Shown one piece after another: positions 1,852-33,237 of a DNA stretch of 64,000 nucleotides. Position 1 is the stretch's first letter. Each line of letters starts with the position of its first letter. The stretch covers positions 2,922 through 66,921 of the forward strand of contig JAMPFR010000011.1 in assembly GCA_023664365.1 (NCBI GenBank), in the 5' to 3' direction. The DNA is from Acetatifactor muris (GTDB lineage Bacteria > Bacillota > Clostridia > Lachnospirales > Lachnospiraceae). The position numbers were made by a program, and so were the translations under genes. Below the pieces are notes generated by a model. That model was not told where the DNA came from. It searched no databases and worked only from the letters and a program-made list of their open reading frames with translations.

Positions 1852-1880
1852 TTGAAATATAGGGAATTTTTTGTTAATAT
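1852..1880 (+). promoter_or_regulatory. Candidate sigma-A promoter of the Fic/Doc-like gene
   Basis: TTGAAA (1852-1857), 17-nt spacer, TAATAT (1875-1880). The left half-site of palindrome 2 lies in the spacer. Confidence 0.4.
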
Positions 1881-1901
1881 ATATTTTAATAAAGTTCCCT
1901 A
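1860..1901. promoter_or_regulatory. Operator candidate 2: 42-bp palindrome TAGGGAA-N-TTCCCTA
   Basis: TAGGGAA at 1860-1866 and TTCCCTA at 1895-1901, ending 4 nt before the GAAGGAG RBS (1906-1912). Confidence 0.45.
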
Positions 1902-1918
1902 TATGAAGGAGTATAAAA

Positions 1919-3829: not shown

Positions 3830-5308
3830 ATGAAAAGAATGTTACGAAAGTTAAGTCCGTTTATTATGTCCGCAGTTATGGTGTGTTATATGATGTGGGC
3901 CGCCCTGCCTGTCAGCGCGGCCAATTATGAGATTCCCGGAACCTGTCAGGTACAGACGGATACCGGTATCTCCCGCAGGGTGAAAACCCTGGATTACAGC
4001 TATGAGAATAATACCTATCTCTCCCTCCGGGATATGGCCGTGGCGCTGAAAGGTACGGACAAAGCATTCTCCCTGGAGATTAAGAAAAGTGCCGTTTCCC
4101 TGAACATTGGGGGCGAATATGCTCCTGTGGGAACGGAAGAATTTTTCTGGGAGAACAGTGAAAATCCGGATATCACCCTGCGGCGGAATGAATTTAAGGT
4201 AAACGGACAGGACGTATATTATTATACCATGATTACGAAGCTGCCCTCCGGCTATTATGACTGCTTTATGATGGCGGCGGATCTGGCTATGATTCTGGAT
4301 ACGGATATCCATGTCTCTGAGGAAGGTTCTGTGGAAATCAATACGGGAGAGCCCTTCAGCGTTTCTCCTGCCGAACTGGAACAGGACGGATATTTTTACG
4401 GGGTGAACAGTGTGCTGGTGGGGGACGCAGGCACCGGAGAAATTTATTATCGGTACCAGTCTGACGAGGCATATCCCATAGCCAGCACCACCAAGCTTAT
4501 GACATGCCTTCTGACCTTGGAAGCCATTTCGGAGGGGCGGCTTGCCCCGGAGGAACAGGTGACGGTTTCGGAGGCGGCCCAGACTCTGGCCGCCTCGTCG
4601 GACGGTGTGCTGCCGCTGGAAGCGGGACAACGGATCACGGTGCGGGAGCTGCTGTTGGGCGCTCTTCTGCCCTCCAGCAACGAGTGCGCGCTGTGCCTGG
4701 CGGAAAGAATTGACGGTTCGGAGGAAGCCTTTGTGGAAAGGATGAATCAGAAAGCCCTGGATTTGGGACTTTCTCAGGCAATTTTCTTCAACAGCCACGG
4801 CCTGCCTTACTATACCGAGGAGGCTGTTCCCGCAAAGTGCCAGAACCGTATGAGCGCGGAGGATATGTTCCGGCTGGTATCTTATCTTTTAAAGGTGTAT
4901 CCCCAGATTACGGACATGACTTCCCTGAAATCCGCCACCCTGGAATCCCTTGGCCGGGAAGTGCGCAATACCAACCCGCTTCTGTATAATCTGCCGGGGG
5001 TTACCGGGTTAAAAACCGGAACCACCAATAAAGCAGGCGCCTGCCTGATTACGTCTCTGCCTGTGGACGACGGAGTTATGGAGCATGATCTGGTGGTGAT
5101 CGTGCTGGGGACGGAGGATTCCATAGAGCGGGGCCGGGTCTCGGGGCTGCTGGCAAGATATGCCATGCAGGCTTTTGCAACGGGAACCGAAGGCGTCATG
5201 GACGGAGAGCAGTCTGAAACCGGAGAAGCCCTGCAGACGCCCGGGAAGCTGCCGGTAAATGCGGAGGCGGCGGTAGACTGCATTTTGCGGACGGCAAAAA
5301 AGCGCTGA
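3830..5308 (+). CDS. Serine-type D-Ala-D-Ala carboxypeptidase (S11/PBP5-like) with an N-terminal extra domain of about 200 aa
   Basis: Signal peptide. SxxK (STTK), SxN (SSNE) and KTG (KTGTT) motifs in the canonical order. Confidence 0.88.
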   Translation: MKRMLRKLSPFIMSAVMVCYMMWAALPVSAANYEIPGTCQVQTDTGISRRVKTLDYSYENNTYLSLRDMAVALKGTDKAFSLEIKKSAVSLNIGGEYAPVGTEEFFWENSENPDITLRRNEFKVNGQDVYYYTMITKLPSGYYDCFMMAADLAMILDTDIHVSEEGSVEINTGEPFSVSPAELEQDGYFYGVNSVLVGDAGTGEIYYRYQSDEAYPIASTTKLMTCLLTLEAISEGRLAPEEQVTVSEAAQTLAASSDGVLPLEAGQRITVRELLLGALLPSSNECALCLAERIDGSEEAFVERMNQKALDLGLSQAIFFNSHGLPYYTEEAVPAKCQNRMSAEDMFRLVSYLLKVYPQITDMTSLKSATLESLGREVRNTNPLLYNLPGVTGLKTGTTNKAGACLITSLPVDDGVMEHDLVVIVLGTEDSIERGRVSGLLARYAMQAFATGTEGVMDGEQSETGEALQTPGKLPVNAEAAVDCILRTAKKR

Positions 5309-12556: not shown

Positions 12557-13234
12557 TTATTTTGTGATGCGGTTGAGAATGCCGTCCACGTCGATTCCCG
12601 GATGGGTTGAGTACATACGGCAGATCTGTTCCGTCAATTCACAGGAGATGCCGCACTTTGCCGCAATGTCCCCCAAGGGCCTGCCCCTGTCAAACTCCCT
12701 TATCACCGCTCTGACAGCGGCGGCCCGGTCTATAGAGCTTTCCGGCAGGGCGACGCTCCTTTCCCCTGCAATATCCTTTCTGATGATCCGGCAGCGGCCG
12801 TTTTCGTCTATTTCCGCTACGGCCATGGTGATGGGCAGGGTAAAACGCCGTTTGCCGCAGCTGCCGGGGTTCAGCCGGATCTGCCCGTCCTTTTTCTCCA
12901 GAGCGTATTTGTGGGAATGGCCGTAAATGATAAAGTCTGCGTCCGCGGCGTCTGCGGAACTTTCTTTTTTGTTGTGAATCATGTAGAAGCGGTGCCCGAA
13001 TAAGTCTGTTGTCAATTCCGCGGGCAGGCCTTCAGCCCACTCCTTGTCGGCGTTTCCCCGCACCGCATACAGCGGCTTCAGCTTCCGCAGGCTGTCCAGA
13101 ATGTCCTGCCGGTCAATGTCTCCGGCATGGAAAATAACGTCGCAGGTCTGCAGTATCTCTGTGACCTCCGGCCGAAGCAGGCCGTGTGTGTCCGAAATAA
13201 TCCCAATTCGATGCAACGTGAGTTCCTCCCGCAA
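12557..13234 (-). CDS. YfcE/MJ0936-type metallophosphoesterase with a C-terminal extension of about 65 aa
   Basis: Motifs SDTHG, HAGD, GNAD and GHSH in the canonical calcineurin-like order. Confidence 0.85.
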   Translation of the reverse strand: MREELTLHRIGIISDTHGLLRPEVTEILQTCDVIFHAGDIDRQDILDSLRKLKPLYAVRGNADKEWAEGLPAELTTDLFGHRFYMIHNKKESSADAADADFIIYGHSHKYALEKKDGQIRLNPGSCGKRRFTLPITMAVAEIDENGRCRIIRKDIAGERSVALPESSIDRAAAVRAVIREFDRGRPLGDIAAKCGISCELTEQICRMYSTHPGIDVDGILNRITK

Positions 13235-13345
13235 AACAATTGTCGAATATAAAGGCGGTGGCAGCGGTTACAGCTCCAATGCGGCCGGACGCCTTCAACT
13301 GCAGATATTGTATCACAATCCGGCCTGTCTGCGCCAGATATTTTA

Positions 13346-13438
13346 GTAACAGTTCAGCCATGGAATGGTCTGCAATCAGTGCTTTGTGCGCAAGCGCCCA
13401 CGCACAGTTTGCAGATCATTCCATGGCTGAACTGTTAC
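13346..13438. mobile_element. 93-bp nested-palindrome MITE-like element (copy 1), flanked by an 8-bp direct repeat
   Basis: The 30-nt arms at 13346-13375 and 13409-13438 are complementary at 29/30 positions. ATATTTTA occurs immediately outside both ends (13338-13345 and 13439-13446). Confidence 0.7.
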
Positions 13439-13546
13439 ATATTTTACGAAATTCAGGTGCAGAGGGGTTGTTGATTTTCCGCGCATATAGTACAATACAC
13501 TCATGAAGCGGCCGGATATAAGTAAAGGAAGGGAGCGTGTAAATAA

Positions 13547-15352
13547 ATGGCGGAGGAATTGAAGGACAGAAAAGACATACCGGAGGAGCTGACCTGGGAT
13601 TTGACGCAGATATATGCTGCGGAGGAGGACATGCTTCGGGACGTGGAGGAAGTGAAGCGTCTGGTAAAGTATATTGAGGAAACCTATCGGGGAAAGCTGG
13701 ATACACCGGAGCGGATCGAAGCCTGTGTGACGCAGTACCGCAGGGTGGAGGAGTTGATGACCCTGGTGGGAAATTACTGCAATCTGGCGGTGGAAGTGGA
13801 TTATTACGACAACTGCAACCAGCAGCGCATGGGAAAAATAAGCCGTCTGGGGGACGAGTTCAACAGCCGCTTAAGCTTTGTGCGCAGTGAGATCATGGAG
13901 CAGCCGGATGAGATCATCAAAGGGGCGATTGAGATCAGCCGGGGCAACAAATATTATTTACAGGATATTCTGCGGGACAAGGCCCACAGGCTGCATCCGG
14001 AGGCGGAGCGGGTAATGTCCGCCCTGGGGCGGAGCATCTACGGAACCCCCTATGAGATTTACAACATTACCAAGCTGGCGGATATTAAATTTGCCCCTTT
14101 TACCGTGGACGGAAAGGAGTATCCGCTGGGGTATACCCTGTTTGAGGACGATTACGAGTATGAGCCGGACACGGCAGTGCGCCGGGCGGCCTTTGCCGCT
14201 TTTTCCGCAAAGATCAAAGAGTATGAGAATGTGACGGCCGCGGCGTACAATGCCAATGTACAGACAGAGAAGGTGCTGTCAAAGCTCCGGGGCTTTGATT
14301 CCGTATTTGATTATCTGCTCTATGGGCAGAAGGTGGGCAGGGATCTTTACGAACGCCAGATTGATTTGATTACGGAAAAGCTGGCGCCCCATATGCGTAA
14401 ATATGCGAAGCTGATACAGAAGGTACATCACCTGGATAAGGTGACATTTGCGGACTTAAAGCTGCCGGTGGATCCCGGCTATACGCCGGAGGTTACCATT
14501 GAAGGCTCCAGAGAATACATAGAAAAGGGGCTTGCCGTTCTGGGTGAGGATTATGTGGAAATGGTGCGCACGGCATATCGGGACCGCTGGGTGGATTTTG
14601 CCCAGAATAAGGGAAAGGCCACAGGCGGCTTCTGTGCCAGCCCTTACGGCAGCCACTCCTATATCCTGATGACATGGAACAATAAGATGTCGGATGTGTT
14701 TACCCTGGCTCATGAACTGGGACACGCGGGGCATTTTAAAATCTGCAACAGCACGCAGTCCATTTTTGACACAGATGTATCCACCTATTTCGTGGAAGCG
14801 CCGTCTACCATGAATGAACTGCTGATGGCACACTACCTGATGAAGACCAGTGATGATAAACGGTTCAGACGCTGGGTGCTGTCCTGTATGGTGAGCAATA
14901 CCTATTACCATAATTTTGTGACGCACCTGCTGGAGGCGGCTTACCAGCGGGAGGTATACAGGCTGGTGGACGCGGGGGAGAGTGTGCAGGCGGAGCAGCT
15001 GAGCGGCATTATGCGCAGCACTCTGGAAAAATTCTGGGGGGATGCGGTGGAGATAAACCCGGGCGCAGAGCTGACATGGATGCGCCAGCCTCATTATTAT
15101 ATGGGGCTGTATTCTTACACTTACAGCGCGGGACTGACCGTTGCCACCCAGGTCTGCAAGCGTCTGGAAAAGGAAGGGGAAGCTGTTGCGGAGGACTGGA
15201 AGAAAGTGCTGGCAGCAGGAAGCACCCTGGACCCGGTGGGGCTTGCGGCCCTGGCGGGAATCGATATTACCACGGATGCACCCCTGCTGGATACCATTGA
15301 AACCATAGGTTCCATGATTGATGAAATCTGTGAACTGACGGAAGAACTGTGA
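13547..15352 (+). CDS. pepF: Oligoendopeptidase F (M3B family)
   Basis: HELGH zinc motif (FTLAHELGHAGH). Length and overall block pattern match PepF. Confidence 0.9.
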   Translation: MAEELKDRKDIPEELTWDLTQIYAAEEDMLRDVEEVKRLVKYIEETYRGKLDTPERIEACVTQYRRVEELMTLVGNYCNLAVEVDYYDNCNQQRMGKISRLGDEFNSRLSFVRSEIMEQPDEIIKGAIEISRGNKYYLQDILRDKAHRLHPEAERVMSALGRSIYGTPYEIYNITKLADIKFAPFTVDGKEYPLGYTLFEDDYEYEPDTAVRRAAFAAFSAKIKEYENVTAAAYNANVQTEKVLSKLRGFDSVFDYLLYGQKVGRDLYERQIDLITEKLAPHMRKYAKLIQKVHHLDKVTFADLKLPVDPGYTPEVTIEGSREYIEKGLAVLGEDYVEMVRTAYRDRWVDFAQNKGKATGGFCASPYGSHSYILMTWNNKMSDVFTLAHELGHAGHFKICNSTQSIFDTDVSTYFVEAPSTMNELLMAHYLMKTSDDKRFRRWVLSCMVSNTYYHNFVTHLLEAAYQREVYRLVDAGESVQAEQLSGIMRSTLEKFWGDAVEINPGAELTWMRQPHYYMGLYSYTYSAGLTVATQVCKRLEKEGEAVAEDWKKVLAAGSTLDPVGLAALAGIDITTDAPLLDTIETIGSMIDEICELTEEL

Positions 15353-32703: not shown

Positions 32704-33024
32704 ATGAGTAAAAGAAAAGGCTATATTTTTACAAATAAAAGACATTCCAACAGGGGGATTATGTCCGTCATTTTGGGCATTATCAGCCTTGCGGCCCTGG
32801 TGGCGGCAGTGTTCCTGTCCTACTTAAGCGGCGGGGAGTCTGTCGCGAAATACGGTTTTACGGGAGTGCTGGCCATGGTATTTTCTCTGGTGGGAGTGGT
32901 GTTGGGATTGCTGACGGCCTGCGACAAAAGCTATTACAGATTTTTTCCCGTGTTGGGAGTGATACTGAATCTGGTGGACTTAGGCGGCGTCAGCCTGATT
33001 TTGTATGCAGGGGTAAACCTTTGA
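32704..33024 (+). CDS. Small integral membrane protein (106 aa)
   Basis: Three predicted TM helices. No recognised motif. Confidence 0.65.
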   Translation: MSKRKGYIFTNKRHSNRGIMSVILGIISLAALVAAVFLSYLSGGESVAKYGFTGVLAMVFSLVGVVLGLLTACDKSYYRFFPVLGVILNLVDLGGVSLILYAGVNL

Positions 33025-33199
33025 TAACAGTTCAGCCATGAAACGATTCAAGGCATGCGCGTGGGTGCTTGCACACAAAGCGCAGGAATTGAATCGCTTC
33101 ATGAGCGGAGCGCCACGCAAATGAAATAAAAGGTGAGCCGCGAAGCGGCGCCGGATGCGCAGCAGCCGCTTTTATGAATTTGTGTGGGCTGAACTGTTG
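33025..33199. mobile_element. 175-bp nested-palindrome element (copy 2 of the family at 13346-13438)
   Basis: Same termini (T)AACAGTTCAGCC at 33025-33037 and GGCTGAACTGTT at 33187-33198. A conserved 24-nt core matches at 21/24 in inverted orientation. Internal hairpins span 33037-33103 and about 33114-33186. Confidence 0.65.
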
Positions 33200-33237
33200 C
33201 ACACGGAGCGTATGATACAGGAAAGGCAGGATTTTAT

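What the first reader, a model, noticed from the sequence alone, without database searches (positions are those of the whole stretch)
13338..13446. 93-bp nested palindrome flanked by an 8-bp direct duplication: a likely MITE insertion
The 30-nt arms at 13346-13375 and 13409-13438 are complementary at 29/30 positions (GTAACAGTTCAGCCATGGAATGGTCTGCAA / TTGCAGATCATTCCATGGCTGAACTGTTAC). They enclose a 33-nt core with its own 6-bp stem (TGTGCG/CGCACA). ATATTTTA is present immediately outside both ends (13338-13345 and 13439-13446), as expected for a target-site duplication. The element lies in the divergent intergenic region between the phosphoesterase gene and pepF, just upstream of the candidate pepF promoter, so it could affect expression. 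No transposase is encoded in this window.
Basis: seen in the sequence. Interest (0 to 1): 0.65.

Follow-up and report, generated by a model that had tools for sequence, protein, structure and literature searches.

The report
Small mobile hairpin element (MITE) insertion
The 93-base palindrome is a recently inserted copy of a small non-coding jumping-DNA element (a MITE). Its family is widespread in gut Lachnospiraceae, I found no description of it, and its folded interior resembles an "orphan" RNA family in Rfam.

Summary

- **The element.** Window 13346-13438 is a 93-nt hairpin with perfect 17-nt termini (GTAACAGTTCAGCCATG). It is flanked by ATATTTTA on both sides.
- **Empty site.** A close relative (pepF 96% identical) has one ACATTTTA and no element at the orthologous site. 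Three further relatives also lack it.
- **The family.** Exact-match scans found the terminus in more than 240 loci, almost all Lachnospiraceae. Of 121 unique two-ended copies (31-390 bp), 44 have identical flanking 8-mers and 24 match at 7/8. A shifted control gave none at 8/8.
- **Sequence versus structure.** The termini are conserved in sequence. The interior hairpins are conserved in structure, with compensatory changes at all 16 pairs of the main helix.
- **The two window copies.** Copy A is a deletion derivative of a 174-nt subfamily. A second, ancient copy lies at 33024-33200 and has decayed differently in each relative.
- **Link to Rfam.** The interiors resemble Rfam Clostridiales-1 (RF01699) but score below its threshold. 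Three bona fide Clostridiales-1 copies also carry perfect 8-bp flanking repeats, so that "sRNA" may itself be a MITE.
- **Not resolved.** No transposase partner was found and no RNA data exist.

This is a new member of a known kind.

The parts
13338..13345 (.). Left copy of the 8-bp target-site duplication, ATATTTTA
   Evidence: The empty site in L001 holds a single ACATTTTA. The BLAST match between L001 and the window breaks exactly at 13345.
13346..13362 (+). Terminal inverted repeat GTAACAGTTCAGCCATG. In the family's canonical orientation, which is the window's minus strand, this is the right end.
   Evidence: 17/17 match to the family consensus. The sequence is conserved across 35 aligned members with no compensatory changes (helix 1).
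13363..13421 (-). Interior, equivalent to 'hairpin 1' of the 174/186-nt subfamilies. The stem is GAATGATCTGCAA.../...TTGCAGACCATTC.
   Evidence: Aligned with family members. The best match is the L056 element, 86% over 80 nt. All 16 pairs of this helix show compensatory changes across the family.
13386..13402 (-). Conserved apical motif CGTGGGCGCTTGCGCAC, read on the minus strand, with a G(CTTG)C tetraloop. The loop is at plus-strand 13391-13394.
   Evidence: Conserved across subfamilies. The same GCUUGC tip is seen in the Clostridiales-1 seed sequences.
13422..13438 (-). Second terminal inverted repeat, CATGGCTGAACTGTTAC on the plus strand. This is the canonical left end.
   Evidence: 0 mismatches.
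13439..13446 (.). Right copy of the 8-bp target-site duplication, ATATTTTA
33024..33200 (+). Second family member (copy B), 177 nt. Its termini are ATAACAGTTCAGCCATG ... GGCTGAACTGTTGC and it folds into four stems. It has no recognisable TSD. It lies between a DUF6142 gene and an M29 aminopeptidase gene.
   Evidence: The orthologous sites in L262-L265 hold the same insertion with different internal deletions, so it is an old copy. It scores 24.4 bits against RF01699 over the full model.

Best explanation
Window 13346-13438 is a non-autonomous DNA transposon (a MITE).

**Family.** It belongs to a large Lachnospiraceae family defined by the 17-nt terminal inverted repeat GTAACAGTTCAGCCATG.

**Inferred mechanism.** A transposase supplied in trans binds the two termini and makes cuts staggered by 8 bp in an A+T-rich target, here ATATTTTA. 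It joins the element ends to the target, and gap repair duplicates the 8 bp.

**Origin of this copy.** It is an internal-deletion derivative of a 174-nt subfamily. It keeps only the two termini and the first interior hairpin, which is why it looks like a nested palindrome.

**Timing and position.** It inserted after this lineage split from its closest sampled relative. It sits in the spacer between the divergent promoters of a metallophosphoesterase gene and pepF and interrupts neither.

**Shown.** The termini, the duplication, the empty site, many copies with the same duplication length, and derivation from the longer subfamily.

**Inferred.** The cut-and-paste chemistry, and the identity of the transposase. 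GTAA-type ends plus an 8-bp duplication fit the IS66 family, but this was not demonstrated.

**Interior.** Across the family the interior is kept as a structure, not as a sequence. This points to an added constraint at the level of single-stranded DNA or RNA.
For: - **Anatomy.**
- **Empty site.** L001 has a single ACATTTTA, and the L001/window match breaks at 13345. L002-L004 also lack the element.
- **Spread.** The terminus scan reached its 120-locus limit in genome contigs and again in metagenome contigs. The hits are nearly all Lachnospiraceae or gut samples.
- **Duplication.** Of 121 unique two-ended copies, 44 have 8/8 flanking 8-mers, 24 have 7/8 and 11 have 6/8. A shifted control gave 0 at 8/8 and 1 at 7/8. 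The perfect duplications are 78% A+T.
- **Termini versus interior.** The termini are invariant with no compensatory change. The interior helix covaries at 16 of 16 pairs, 94.6% of cells are paired, and 0 of 500 shuffles reach the observed values.
- **Subfamily.** Copy A aligns with the 174-nt subfamily; the best match is 86% over 80 nt.
- **Deletions in place.** Copy B shows that internal-deletion derivatives arise in situ.
- **Current state.** The three metagenomes that hold this strain all carry the filled site. Many other contigs match only the element arms.
Against: - No autonomous element or transposase bounded by these termini was found in about 2 Mb of sampled loci.
- No second copy of the exact 93-nt variant was found. 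So it is not shown whether the short form itself transposed or was shortened after insertion.
- The single 8-mer at the empty site differs from the duplicated one at one base (ACATTTTA against ATATTTTA). The two lineages differ at about 10-13% of nucleotides in the flanks, so one difference in eight is not unexpected.
- The strong covariation of the interior is not explained by selfish transposition alone.
Confidence: 0.93

Rival explanations
1. The element is primarily a structured non-coding RNA of the Clostridiales-1 type (an sRNA or a cis-acting RNA). The folded transcript would be the selected function, and mobility would be incidental or a means of spreading it.
For: - The interior helices covary strongly.
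- The consensus fold is much better on one strand: -28.8 against -15.8 kcal/mol. Single-sequence folds favour that strand in 43 cases against 15.
- A G(CUUG)C tetraloop is conserved.
- There are weak full-length matches to RF01699: 31.0, 24.4 and 33.3 bits.
- A sequence profile built from 17 Clostridiales-1 seeds hits the 163-166-nt subfamily at E = 5e-7 to 1e-4.
Against: - No match reaches the Rfam gathering score of 48. The 186-nt subfamily gives no RF01699 match at E <= 0.01.
- Copy A lacks stems 3 and 4. It lies upstream of both neighbouring promoters, so nothing obvious would transcribe it.
- Orientation relative to neighbouring genes is only weakly biased: 11 co-directional against 5 antisense.
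- The aligned sequences are related to each other, so the strand statistics are not independent.
- No RNA-seq data exist for this organism.
- Copy B decays freely in relatives, which argues against selection on that copy.
Confidence: 0.15
2. It is a palindromic operator or other protein-binding site that regulates the divergent phosphoesterase and pepF genes.
For: It lies in a divergent promoter region, and long palindromes can be operators.
Against: It is absent from the orthologous region of four related loci that keep both genes. The same sequence occurs at hundreds of unrelated loci with target duplications.
Confidence: 0.02
3. It is an intrinsic terminator or attenuator hairpin.
For: The hairpin is very stable. 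It is followed on the plus strand by AUAUUUUA.
Against: The terminator scan found none in 13150-13650. The U-rich tail is simply the duplicated target. No gene ends upstream of the element on either strand.
Confidence: 0.02
4. It is a REP/RAYT-type or IS200/IS605-type palindromic element (a PATE), moved as single-stranded DNA by a Y1 (HUH) transposase.
For: The structure is hairpin-rich and the ends read ...GTTAC. From memory, IS608 inserts 3' of TTAC.
Against: By established knowledge of these families, they make no target-site duplication and have no terminal inverted repeats. Here a fixed 8-bp duplication and 17-nt inverted termini are the rule. The targets are varied A+T-rich 8-mers, not one tetranucleotide.
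Confidence: 0.02

Closest known systems
Bacterial MITEs (for example Correia/NEMIS of Neisseria, ERIC/IRU of enterobacteria, RUP of Streptococcus pneumoniae, Nezha of cyanobacteria). The comparison is from general knowledge.
   Same: Short, non-coding and multi-copy. It has terminal inverted repeats and a target-site duplication of fixed length, is intergenic, and can fold into a long hairpin.
   Different: The termini are different (GTAACAGTTCAGCCATG), the duplication is 8 bp and the host range is Lachnospiraceae. The interior is conserved as a covarying multi-stem structure and is not merely decaying. No partner IS is known. I found no description of this family in the searchable literature.
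Rfam RF01699, the Clostridiales-1 RNA motif (Weinberg et al. 2010, PMC2864571)
   Same: Same hosts (Clostridiales, gut). Both have a closing stem plus a long hairpin tipped by G(CUUG)C, followed by further stems. Both show strong covariation and no conserved gene neighbourhood. There are weak full-length model matches and profile matches to the 163-166-nt subfamily. Three bona fide Clostridiales-1 copies also have perfect 8-bp flanking repeats.
   Different: All scores are below the gathering threshold of 48 bits. The closing-stem and terminus sequences differ: GAT(A/G)CC... and ...GGGGTCAAAAG..CCCCAACATC against GTAACAGTTCAGCC. Copy A has only the first two stems. Rfam files the motif as an sRNA gene, not as a mobile element.
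IS66-family insertion sequences
   Same: IS66 termini are 20-30 bp, start with GTAAGCG, and give 8-bp direct repeats (PMC11946415). Here the termini start with GTAACAG and the duplication is 8 bp.
   Different: No tnpA/B/C genes or any transposase lie between such termini in any sampled locus. Similarity of the ends is limited to 5 of the first 7 bases.

Membership tests
MITE (non-autonomous bacterial DNA transposon) | Short and without coding capacity | tested here: met
   The element is 93 nt, and family copies are 31-390 bp. The ORFs overlapping copy A are short and lie across the palindrome.
MITE (non-autonomous bacterial DNA transposon) | Terminal inverted repeats shared by all copies | tested here: met
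   GTAACAGTTCAGCCATG is present at both ends of copy A with 0 mismatches. It is conserved across 35 aligned members.
MITE (non-autonomous bacterial DNA transposon) | Target-site duplication of fixed length at independent copies | tested here: met
   The duplication is 8 bp. Of 121 unique copies, 44 are perfect and 24 match at 7/8. The shifted control gave 0 perfect.
MITE (non-autonomous bacterial DNA transposon) | Presence/absence polymorphism with an intact empty site | tested here: met
   L001 has a single ACATTTTA with matching flanks on both sides.
MITE (non-autonomous bacterial DNA transposon) | A cognate autonomous IS with the same termini | tested here: inconclusive
   None was found in 240 loci carrying the terminus, about 2 Mb in all. 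Short-read MAG assemblies often break at IS copies, so absence is weak evidence.
Rfam RF01699 Clostridiales-1 | Covariance-model score at or above the gathering score (48 bits) | tested here: not met
   Copy A scores 31.0 or 23.7 bits on the minus strand, copy B 24.4, and the best family member tested (L107) 33.3. There were no gathering-level hits in the window or in 18 loci.
Rfam RF01699 Clostridiales-1 | Four-stem architecture with a G(CUUG)C-tipped long hairpin | tested here: inconclusive
   Copy B and the 174/186-nt members have a closing stem plus three interior stems and the GCUUGC tip. Copy A keeps only the closing stem and the first hairpin.
IS66-derived element | Termini starting with GTAAGCG and 8-bp direct repeats (PMC11946415) | tested here: inconclusive
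   The 8-bp repeats are met. The termini start with GTAACAG, which matches 5 of 7. No IS66-type ORF was seen, but the motif scan used was crude.
REP/RAYT or IS200/IS605-type palindromic elements | No target-site duplication and no terminal inverted repeats | tested here: not met
   A fixed 8-bp duplication and 17-nt inverted termini are present.
Intrinsic terminator | G+C-rich stem followed by a U tract at the end of a transcription unit | tested here: not met
   The scan found none in 13150-13650. The element lies between divergent gene starts.

The most novel reading that the evidence does not exclude
The covarying multi-stem interior may be a functional module, at the RNA or single-stranded-DNA level. 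At least two MITE families with unrelated termini would share it: the GTAACAG family found here, and the elements that Rfam lists as the Clostridiales-1 'sRNA'. On this reading Clostridiales-1, an orphan motif since 2010 that Weinberg et al. 2010 call very common in human-gut sequences, is a mobile element and not a conventional sRNA gene. The fold itself would be needed for transposition or for tolerance by the host.
Probability: 0.3. Interest if true: 0.65.

Novelty: new member of a known kind. Interest (0 to 1): 0.45.

Why it matters
- **Assembly and annotation.** MITEs create insertion polymorphisms next to promoters and break short-read assemblies. Contigs in the three metagenomes end inside this repeat. 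They can also be mistaken for RNA genes. A catalogued family with a clear 17-nt signature and an 8-bp duplication would help annotate gut Lachnospiraceae genomes and track strains by presence or absence of copies.
- **The Rfam link.** Bona fide Clostridiales-1 copies also carry 8-bp flanking repeats. This offers a concrete, testable answer to what that orphan Rfam family is.
- **This locus.** The practical question is whether the insertion changes expression of pepF or of the phosphoesterase gene. That was not tested.

Tried and rejected
**Searches that found nothing useful**
- A paired-termini pattern in viral contigs gave no hits. The single terminus in viral contigs gave 16 hits, of which only one (L136) resembles a family end and the rest look like unrelated matches.
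- BLAST of the element against 72,556 plasmids gave only chance-level hits.
- No RNA sequencing runs hold this organism, so transcription could not be tested.
- Literature searches for the terminus sequences and for MITEs in Lachnospiraceae or Clostridiales found nothing relevant.

**Hunts for an autonomous partner, all negative**
- ORFs next to single termini.
- Pairs of termini 0.4-8 kb apart with a duplication.
- GTAA...TTAC elements.
- Any inverted-repeat element with an exact 8-bp duplication. This gave only a cobT-containing composite.
- A crude IS66 motif scan.

**Readings considered and rejected**
- Operator, terminator, REP/RAYT or IS200/IS605 element: see the rival explanations.
- Integron attC site: the ends do not fit RYYYAAC / GTTRRRY, and attC sites have no target duplication. 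This was judged by inspection.
- The miRNA-family matches in Rfam (for example mir-3912, 52.9 bits against a gathering score of 95) are generic long-hairpin matches.

**Uninformative**
- L125 is too distant (52% amino-acid identity) to say anything about copy B.

Full report
**Observation.** The sequence is as described.
- The arms 13346-13375 and 13409-13438 pair at 29/30. The repeat finder extends them to 37 nt at 92%.
- ATATTTTA abuts both ends, at 13338-13345 and 13439-13446.
- The fold is far outside chance: RNA -68.6 kcal/mol with z = -12.3, and DNA -40.1 with z = -10.
- The arm motif occurs three times in the window against 0.02 expected. The third occurrence is at 33026.
- The element lies between a 225-aa metallophosphoesterase ORF (12557-13234, minus strand) and a 601-aa oligoendopeptidase F gene (13547-15352, plus strand).

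**Empty site.** pepF homologues place the window in an uncultured Lachnospiraceae lineage. Named relatives are Acetatifactor sp. or 'Bacillota bacterium' MAGs. I fetched the orthologous loci and aligned the intergenic regions.
- L001 (GCA_023663285.1, pepF 96% identical) reads ...CTGCGCCAGACATTTTA|CGAAATTCAGATGCAG.
- The window reads ...CTGCGCCAGATATTTTA[93 nt]ATATTTTACGAAATTCAGGTGCAG.
- The window therefore differs by exactly the element plus one extra 8-mer.
- The BLAST match between L001 and the window breaks at 13345.
- L002-L004 (pepF 93-94% identical) also lack the element.
- The three metagenomes that contain this strain all have the filled site. Many other contigs match only the arms, so related copies are numerous there.

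**Family.**
- An exact scan for TAACAGTTCAGCCATG in one genome per species hit the 120-locus limit. Nearly all hits were Lachnospiraceae: Acetatifactor, Blautia, Mediterraneibacter, Muricomes, Eisenbergiella, Roseburia, Lachnoclostridium and others.
- A scan of metagenome contigs for the 17-mer also hit its limit, mostly in gut samples.
- Most hits are short elements bounded by GTAACAGTTCAGCCATG ... CATGGCTGAACTGTTAC. Common lengths are 151, 163-166, 174 and 186-188 bp.
- Among 121 unique two-ended copies, the flanking 8-mers are identical in 44, match at 7/8 in 24 and at 6/8 in 11. A control with the right flank shifted by 4 bases gave none at 8/8 and one at 7/8.
- The perfect duplications are 78% A+T.
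- This is the signature of a transposase that makes 8-bp staggered cuts in A+T-rich targets.

**Where copy A fits.** In the family's canonical orientation, copy A reads on the window's minus strand.
- It aligns with the left terminus and first hairpin of the 174-nt subfamily. It then runs directly into the right terminus.
- Its best match is the L056 element, 86% over 80 nt.
- It is therefore an internal-deletion derivative.

That such deletions arise in place is shown by the second window copy, 33024-33200 (177 nt, four stems).
- The orthologous sites in four relatives carry the same insertion with different internal deletions.
- In the same MAG as L001 it is reduced to the two terminus halves, about 30 nt.
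- Copy B is therefore old and decaying, and it has no recognisable duplication. Copy A is recent, with perfect termini and a perfect duplication.

**Structure.** I aligned 35 members of the 174/186-nt subfamilies.
- The termini (helix 1) are conserved in sequence, with no compensatory change.
- The long interior hairpin has compensatory changes at all 16 pairs.
- Overall 94.6% of cells are paired, against 81.8% in shuffles and 32-42% for slid partners. None of 500 shuffles reached any of the observed measures.
- The apex, CGTGGGAGCTTGCTCAC with a G(CUUG)C tetraloop, is conserved.
- The consensus fold is better on the canonical strand, -28.8 against -15.8 kcal/mol. Single sequences favour that strand 43 to 15.
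- The sequences are related to each other, so these counts overstate independence.
- I conclude that the termini are protein-recognition sites. The interior is under a structural constraint at the single-strand level, DNA or RNA. Which of the two was not resolved, because no RNA runs exist for this organism.

**Relation to Rfam Clostridiales-1.**
- Apart from generic miRNA-hairpin matches, the Rfam match of interest is RF01699. It is below threshold: copy A 31.0 bits on the minus strand, copy B 24.4 on the plus strand, and the L107 163-nt member 33.3, against a gathering score of 48.
- There were no gathering-level matches in the window or in 18 loci. The 186-nt subfamily gave none at E <= 0.01. 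Membership is therefore not met.
- Weinberg et al. describe Clostridiales-1 as a four-stem motif, very common in human-gut sequences, with significant covariation. They rate it as probably an RNA and not cis-regulatory, and do not assign it a function.
- An nhmmer profile that I built from 17 of their seed sequences hits the 163-166-nt subfamily at E = 5e-7 to 1e-4. The interiors therefore appear to be homologous.
- The same profile found three complete bona fide Clostridiales-1 copies in my loci, in L008, L149 and L172 (70-79 bits), without GTAACAG termini.
- Each of the three is flanked by a perfect 8-bp direct repeat (ATTTTTAT, TCATATAT, GTATGATG) at the same boundaries. The repeat lies just before GAT(A/G)CC and just after a terminal hairpin ending CAACATC. 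The ends form an imperfect inverted repeat, GATnnnnGGGTCAAAAG.
- For each copy, 2-3% of shuffled flanks gave a perfect 8-mer repeat.
- In five seed rows with flanks the picture is mixed: one at 7/8, one longer repeat with an indel, one weak match, and two with none (by eye).
- This suggests that Clostridiales-1 is itself a MITE-like element. It does not establish it.

**Mobilising enzyme.** None was found.
- No transposase lies next to single termini.
- No 0.4-8 kb element has both termini and a duplication.
- A general search for inverted-repeat elements with exact 8-bp duplications found only a cobT-containing composite in L094.
- Plasmid and viral collections were uninformative.
- IS66-family elements have termini starting with GTAAGCG and 8-bp direct repeats (PMC11946415). 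GTAACAG plus 8 bp resembles this, but it is a lead and not a test.

**Local consequences (inferred only).** The consensus scans found no promoter or terminator. By inspection:
- A TGnTACAAT box on the minus strand at 13307-13315 is conserved in L001 and L002. It probably serves the phosphoesterase gene.
- TTGTTG, 17 nt, TACAAT at 13468-13496 is the candidate pepF promoter.
- The insertion lies between the two and interrupts neither.

**Verdict.**
- It is a new member of a known kind.
- The family appears undescribed in the searchable literature.
- Its structured interior and its link to an orphan Rfam motif are the parts worth following.

Noticed in passing
L008 3865-4068; L149 (minus strand, nhmmer hit 4004-4163, the element runs about 35 nt beyond it); L172 2951-3153: Bona fide Clostridiales-1 (RF01699-like) copies are each flanked by a perfect 8-bp direct repeat. 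They carry an extra terminal hairpin (GGGGTCAAAAG..CTTTTGACCCC AACATC) that lies outside the Rfam model. This suggests the Rfam 'sRNA' is a MITE with its own termini.
   Followed up: partly
window 33024-33200: A second, 177-nt family member lies between a DUF6142 gene and an M29 aminopeptidase gene. The insertion is shared with relatives, which carry different internal deletions of it (L262-L265).
   Followed up: yes
L114 2469-2935: Five tandem 79-nt units are followed by one complete element. Each unit consists of the 8-mer CTGCTATT plus the left 71 nt of a 151-type element. This is an unusual tandem amplification of a half-element together with its target duplication.
   Followed up: no
L228 8825-9081: Two family copies lie head to tail, and the same 8-mer ATAAAGTT is present three times. 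This could be repeated insertion into the same target or duplication of an element together with its target duplication.
   Followed up: no
L094 3908-5114: A cobT-like gene (375 aa) lies between a solo family terminus and a 100-nt family copy. TCATTTTC is repeated outside both. This may be a composite that mobilised a host gene. The boundaries are ambiguous by 1-2 nt.
   Followed up: partly
L084 2378-4238: An rtcB-like ORF lies between two family termini 1861 bp apart. There is no matching duplication.
   Followed up: no
window 13447-13546 compared with L001 2795-2975 and L002-L004: The pepF upstream region has been remodelled between close relatives. L001-L004 carry a TGGTATAAT box that the window lacks. 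L001 also has about 115 extra nucleotides and a second such box.
   Followed up: no
window 1857-1904: A 24-nt-arm palindrome with no spacer, ATATAGGGAATTTTTTGTTAATAT / ATATTTTAATAAAGTTCCCTATAT, 79% complementary.
   Followed up: no
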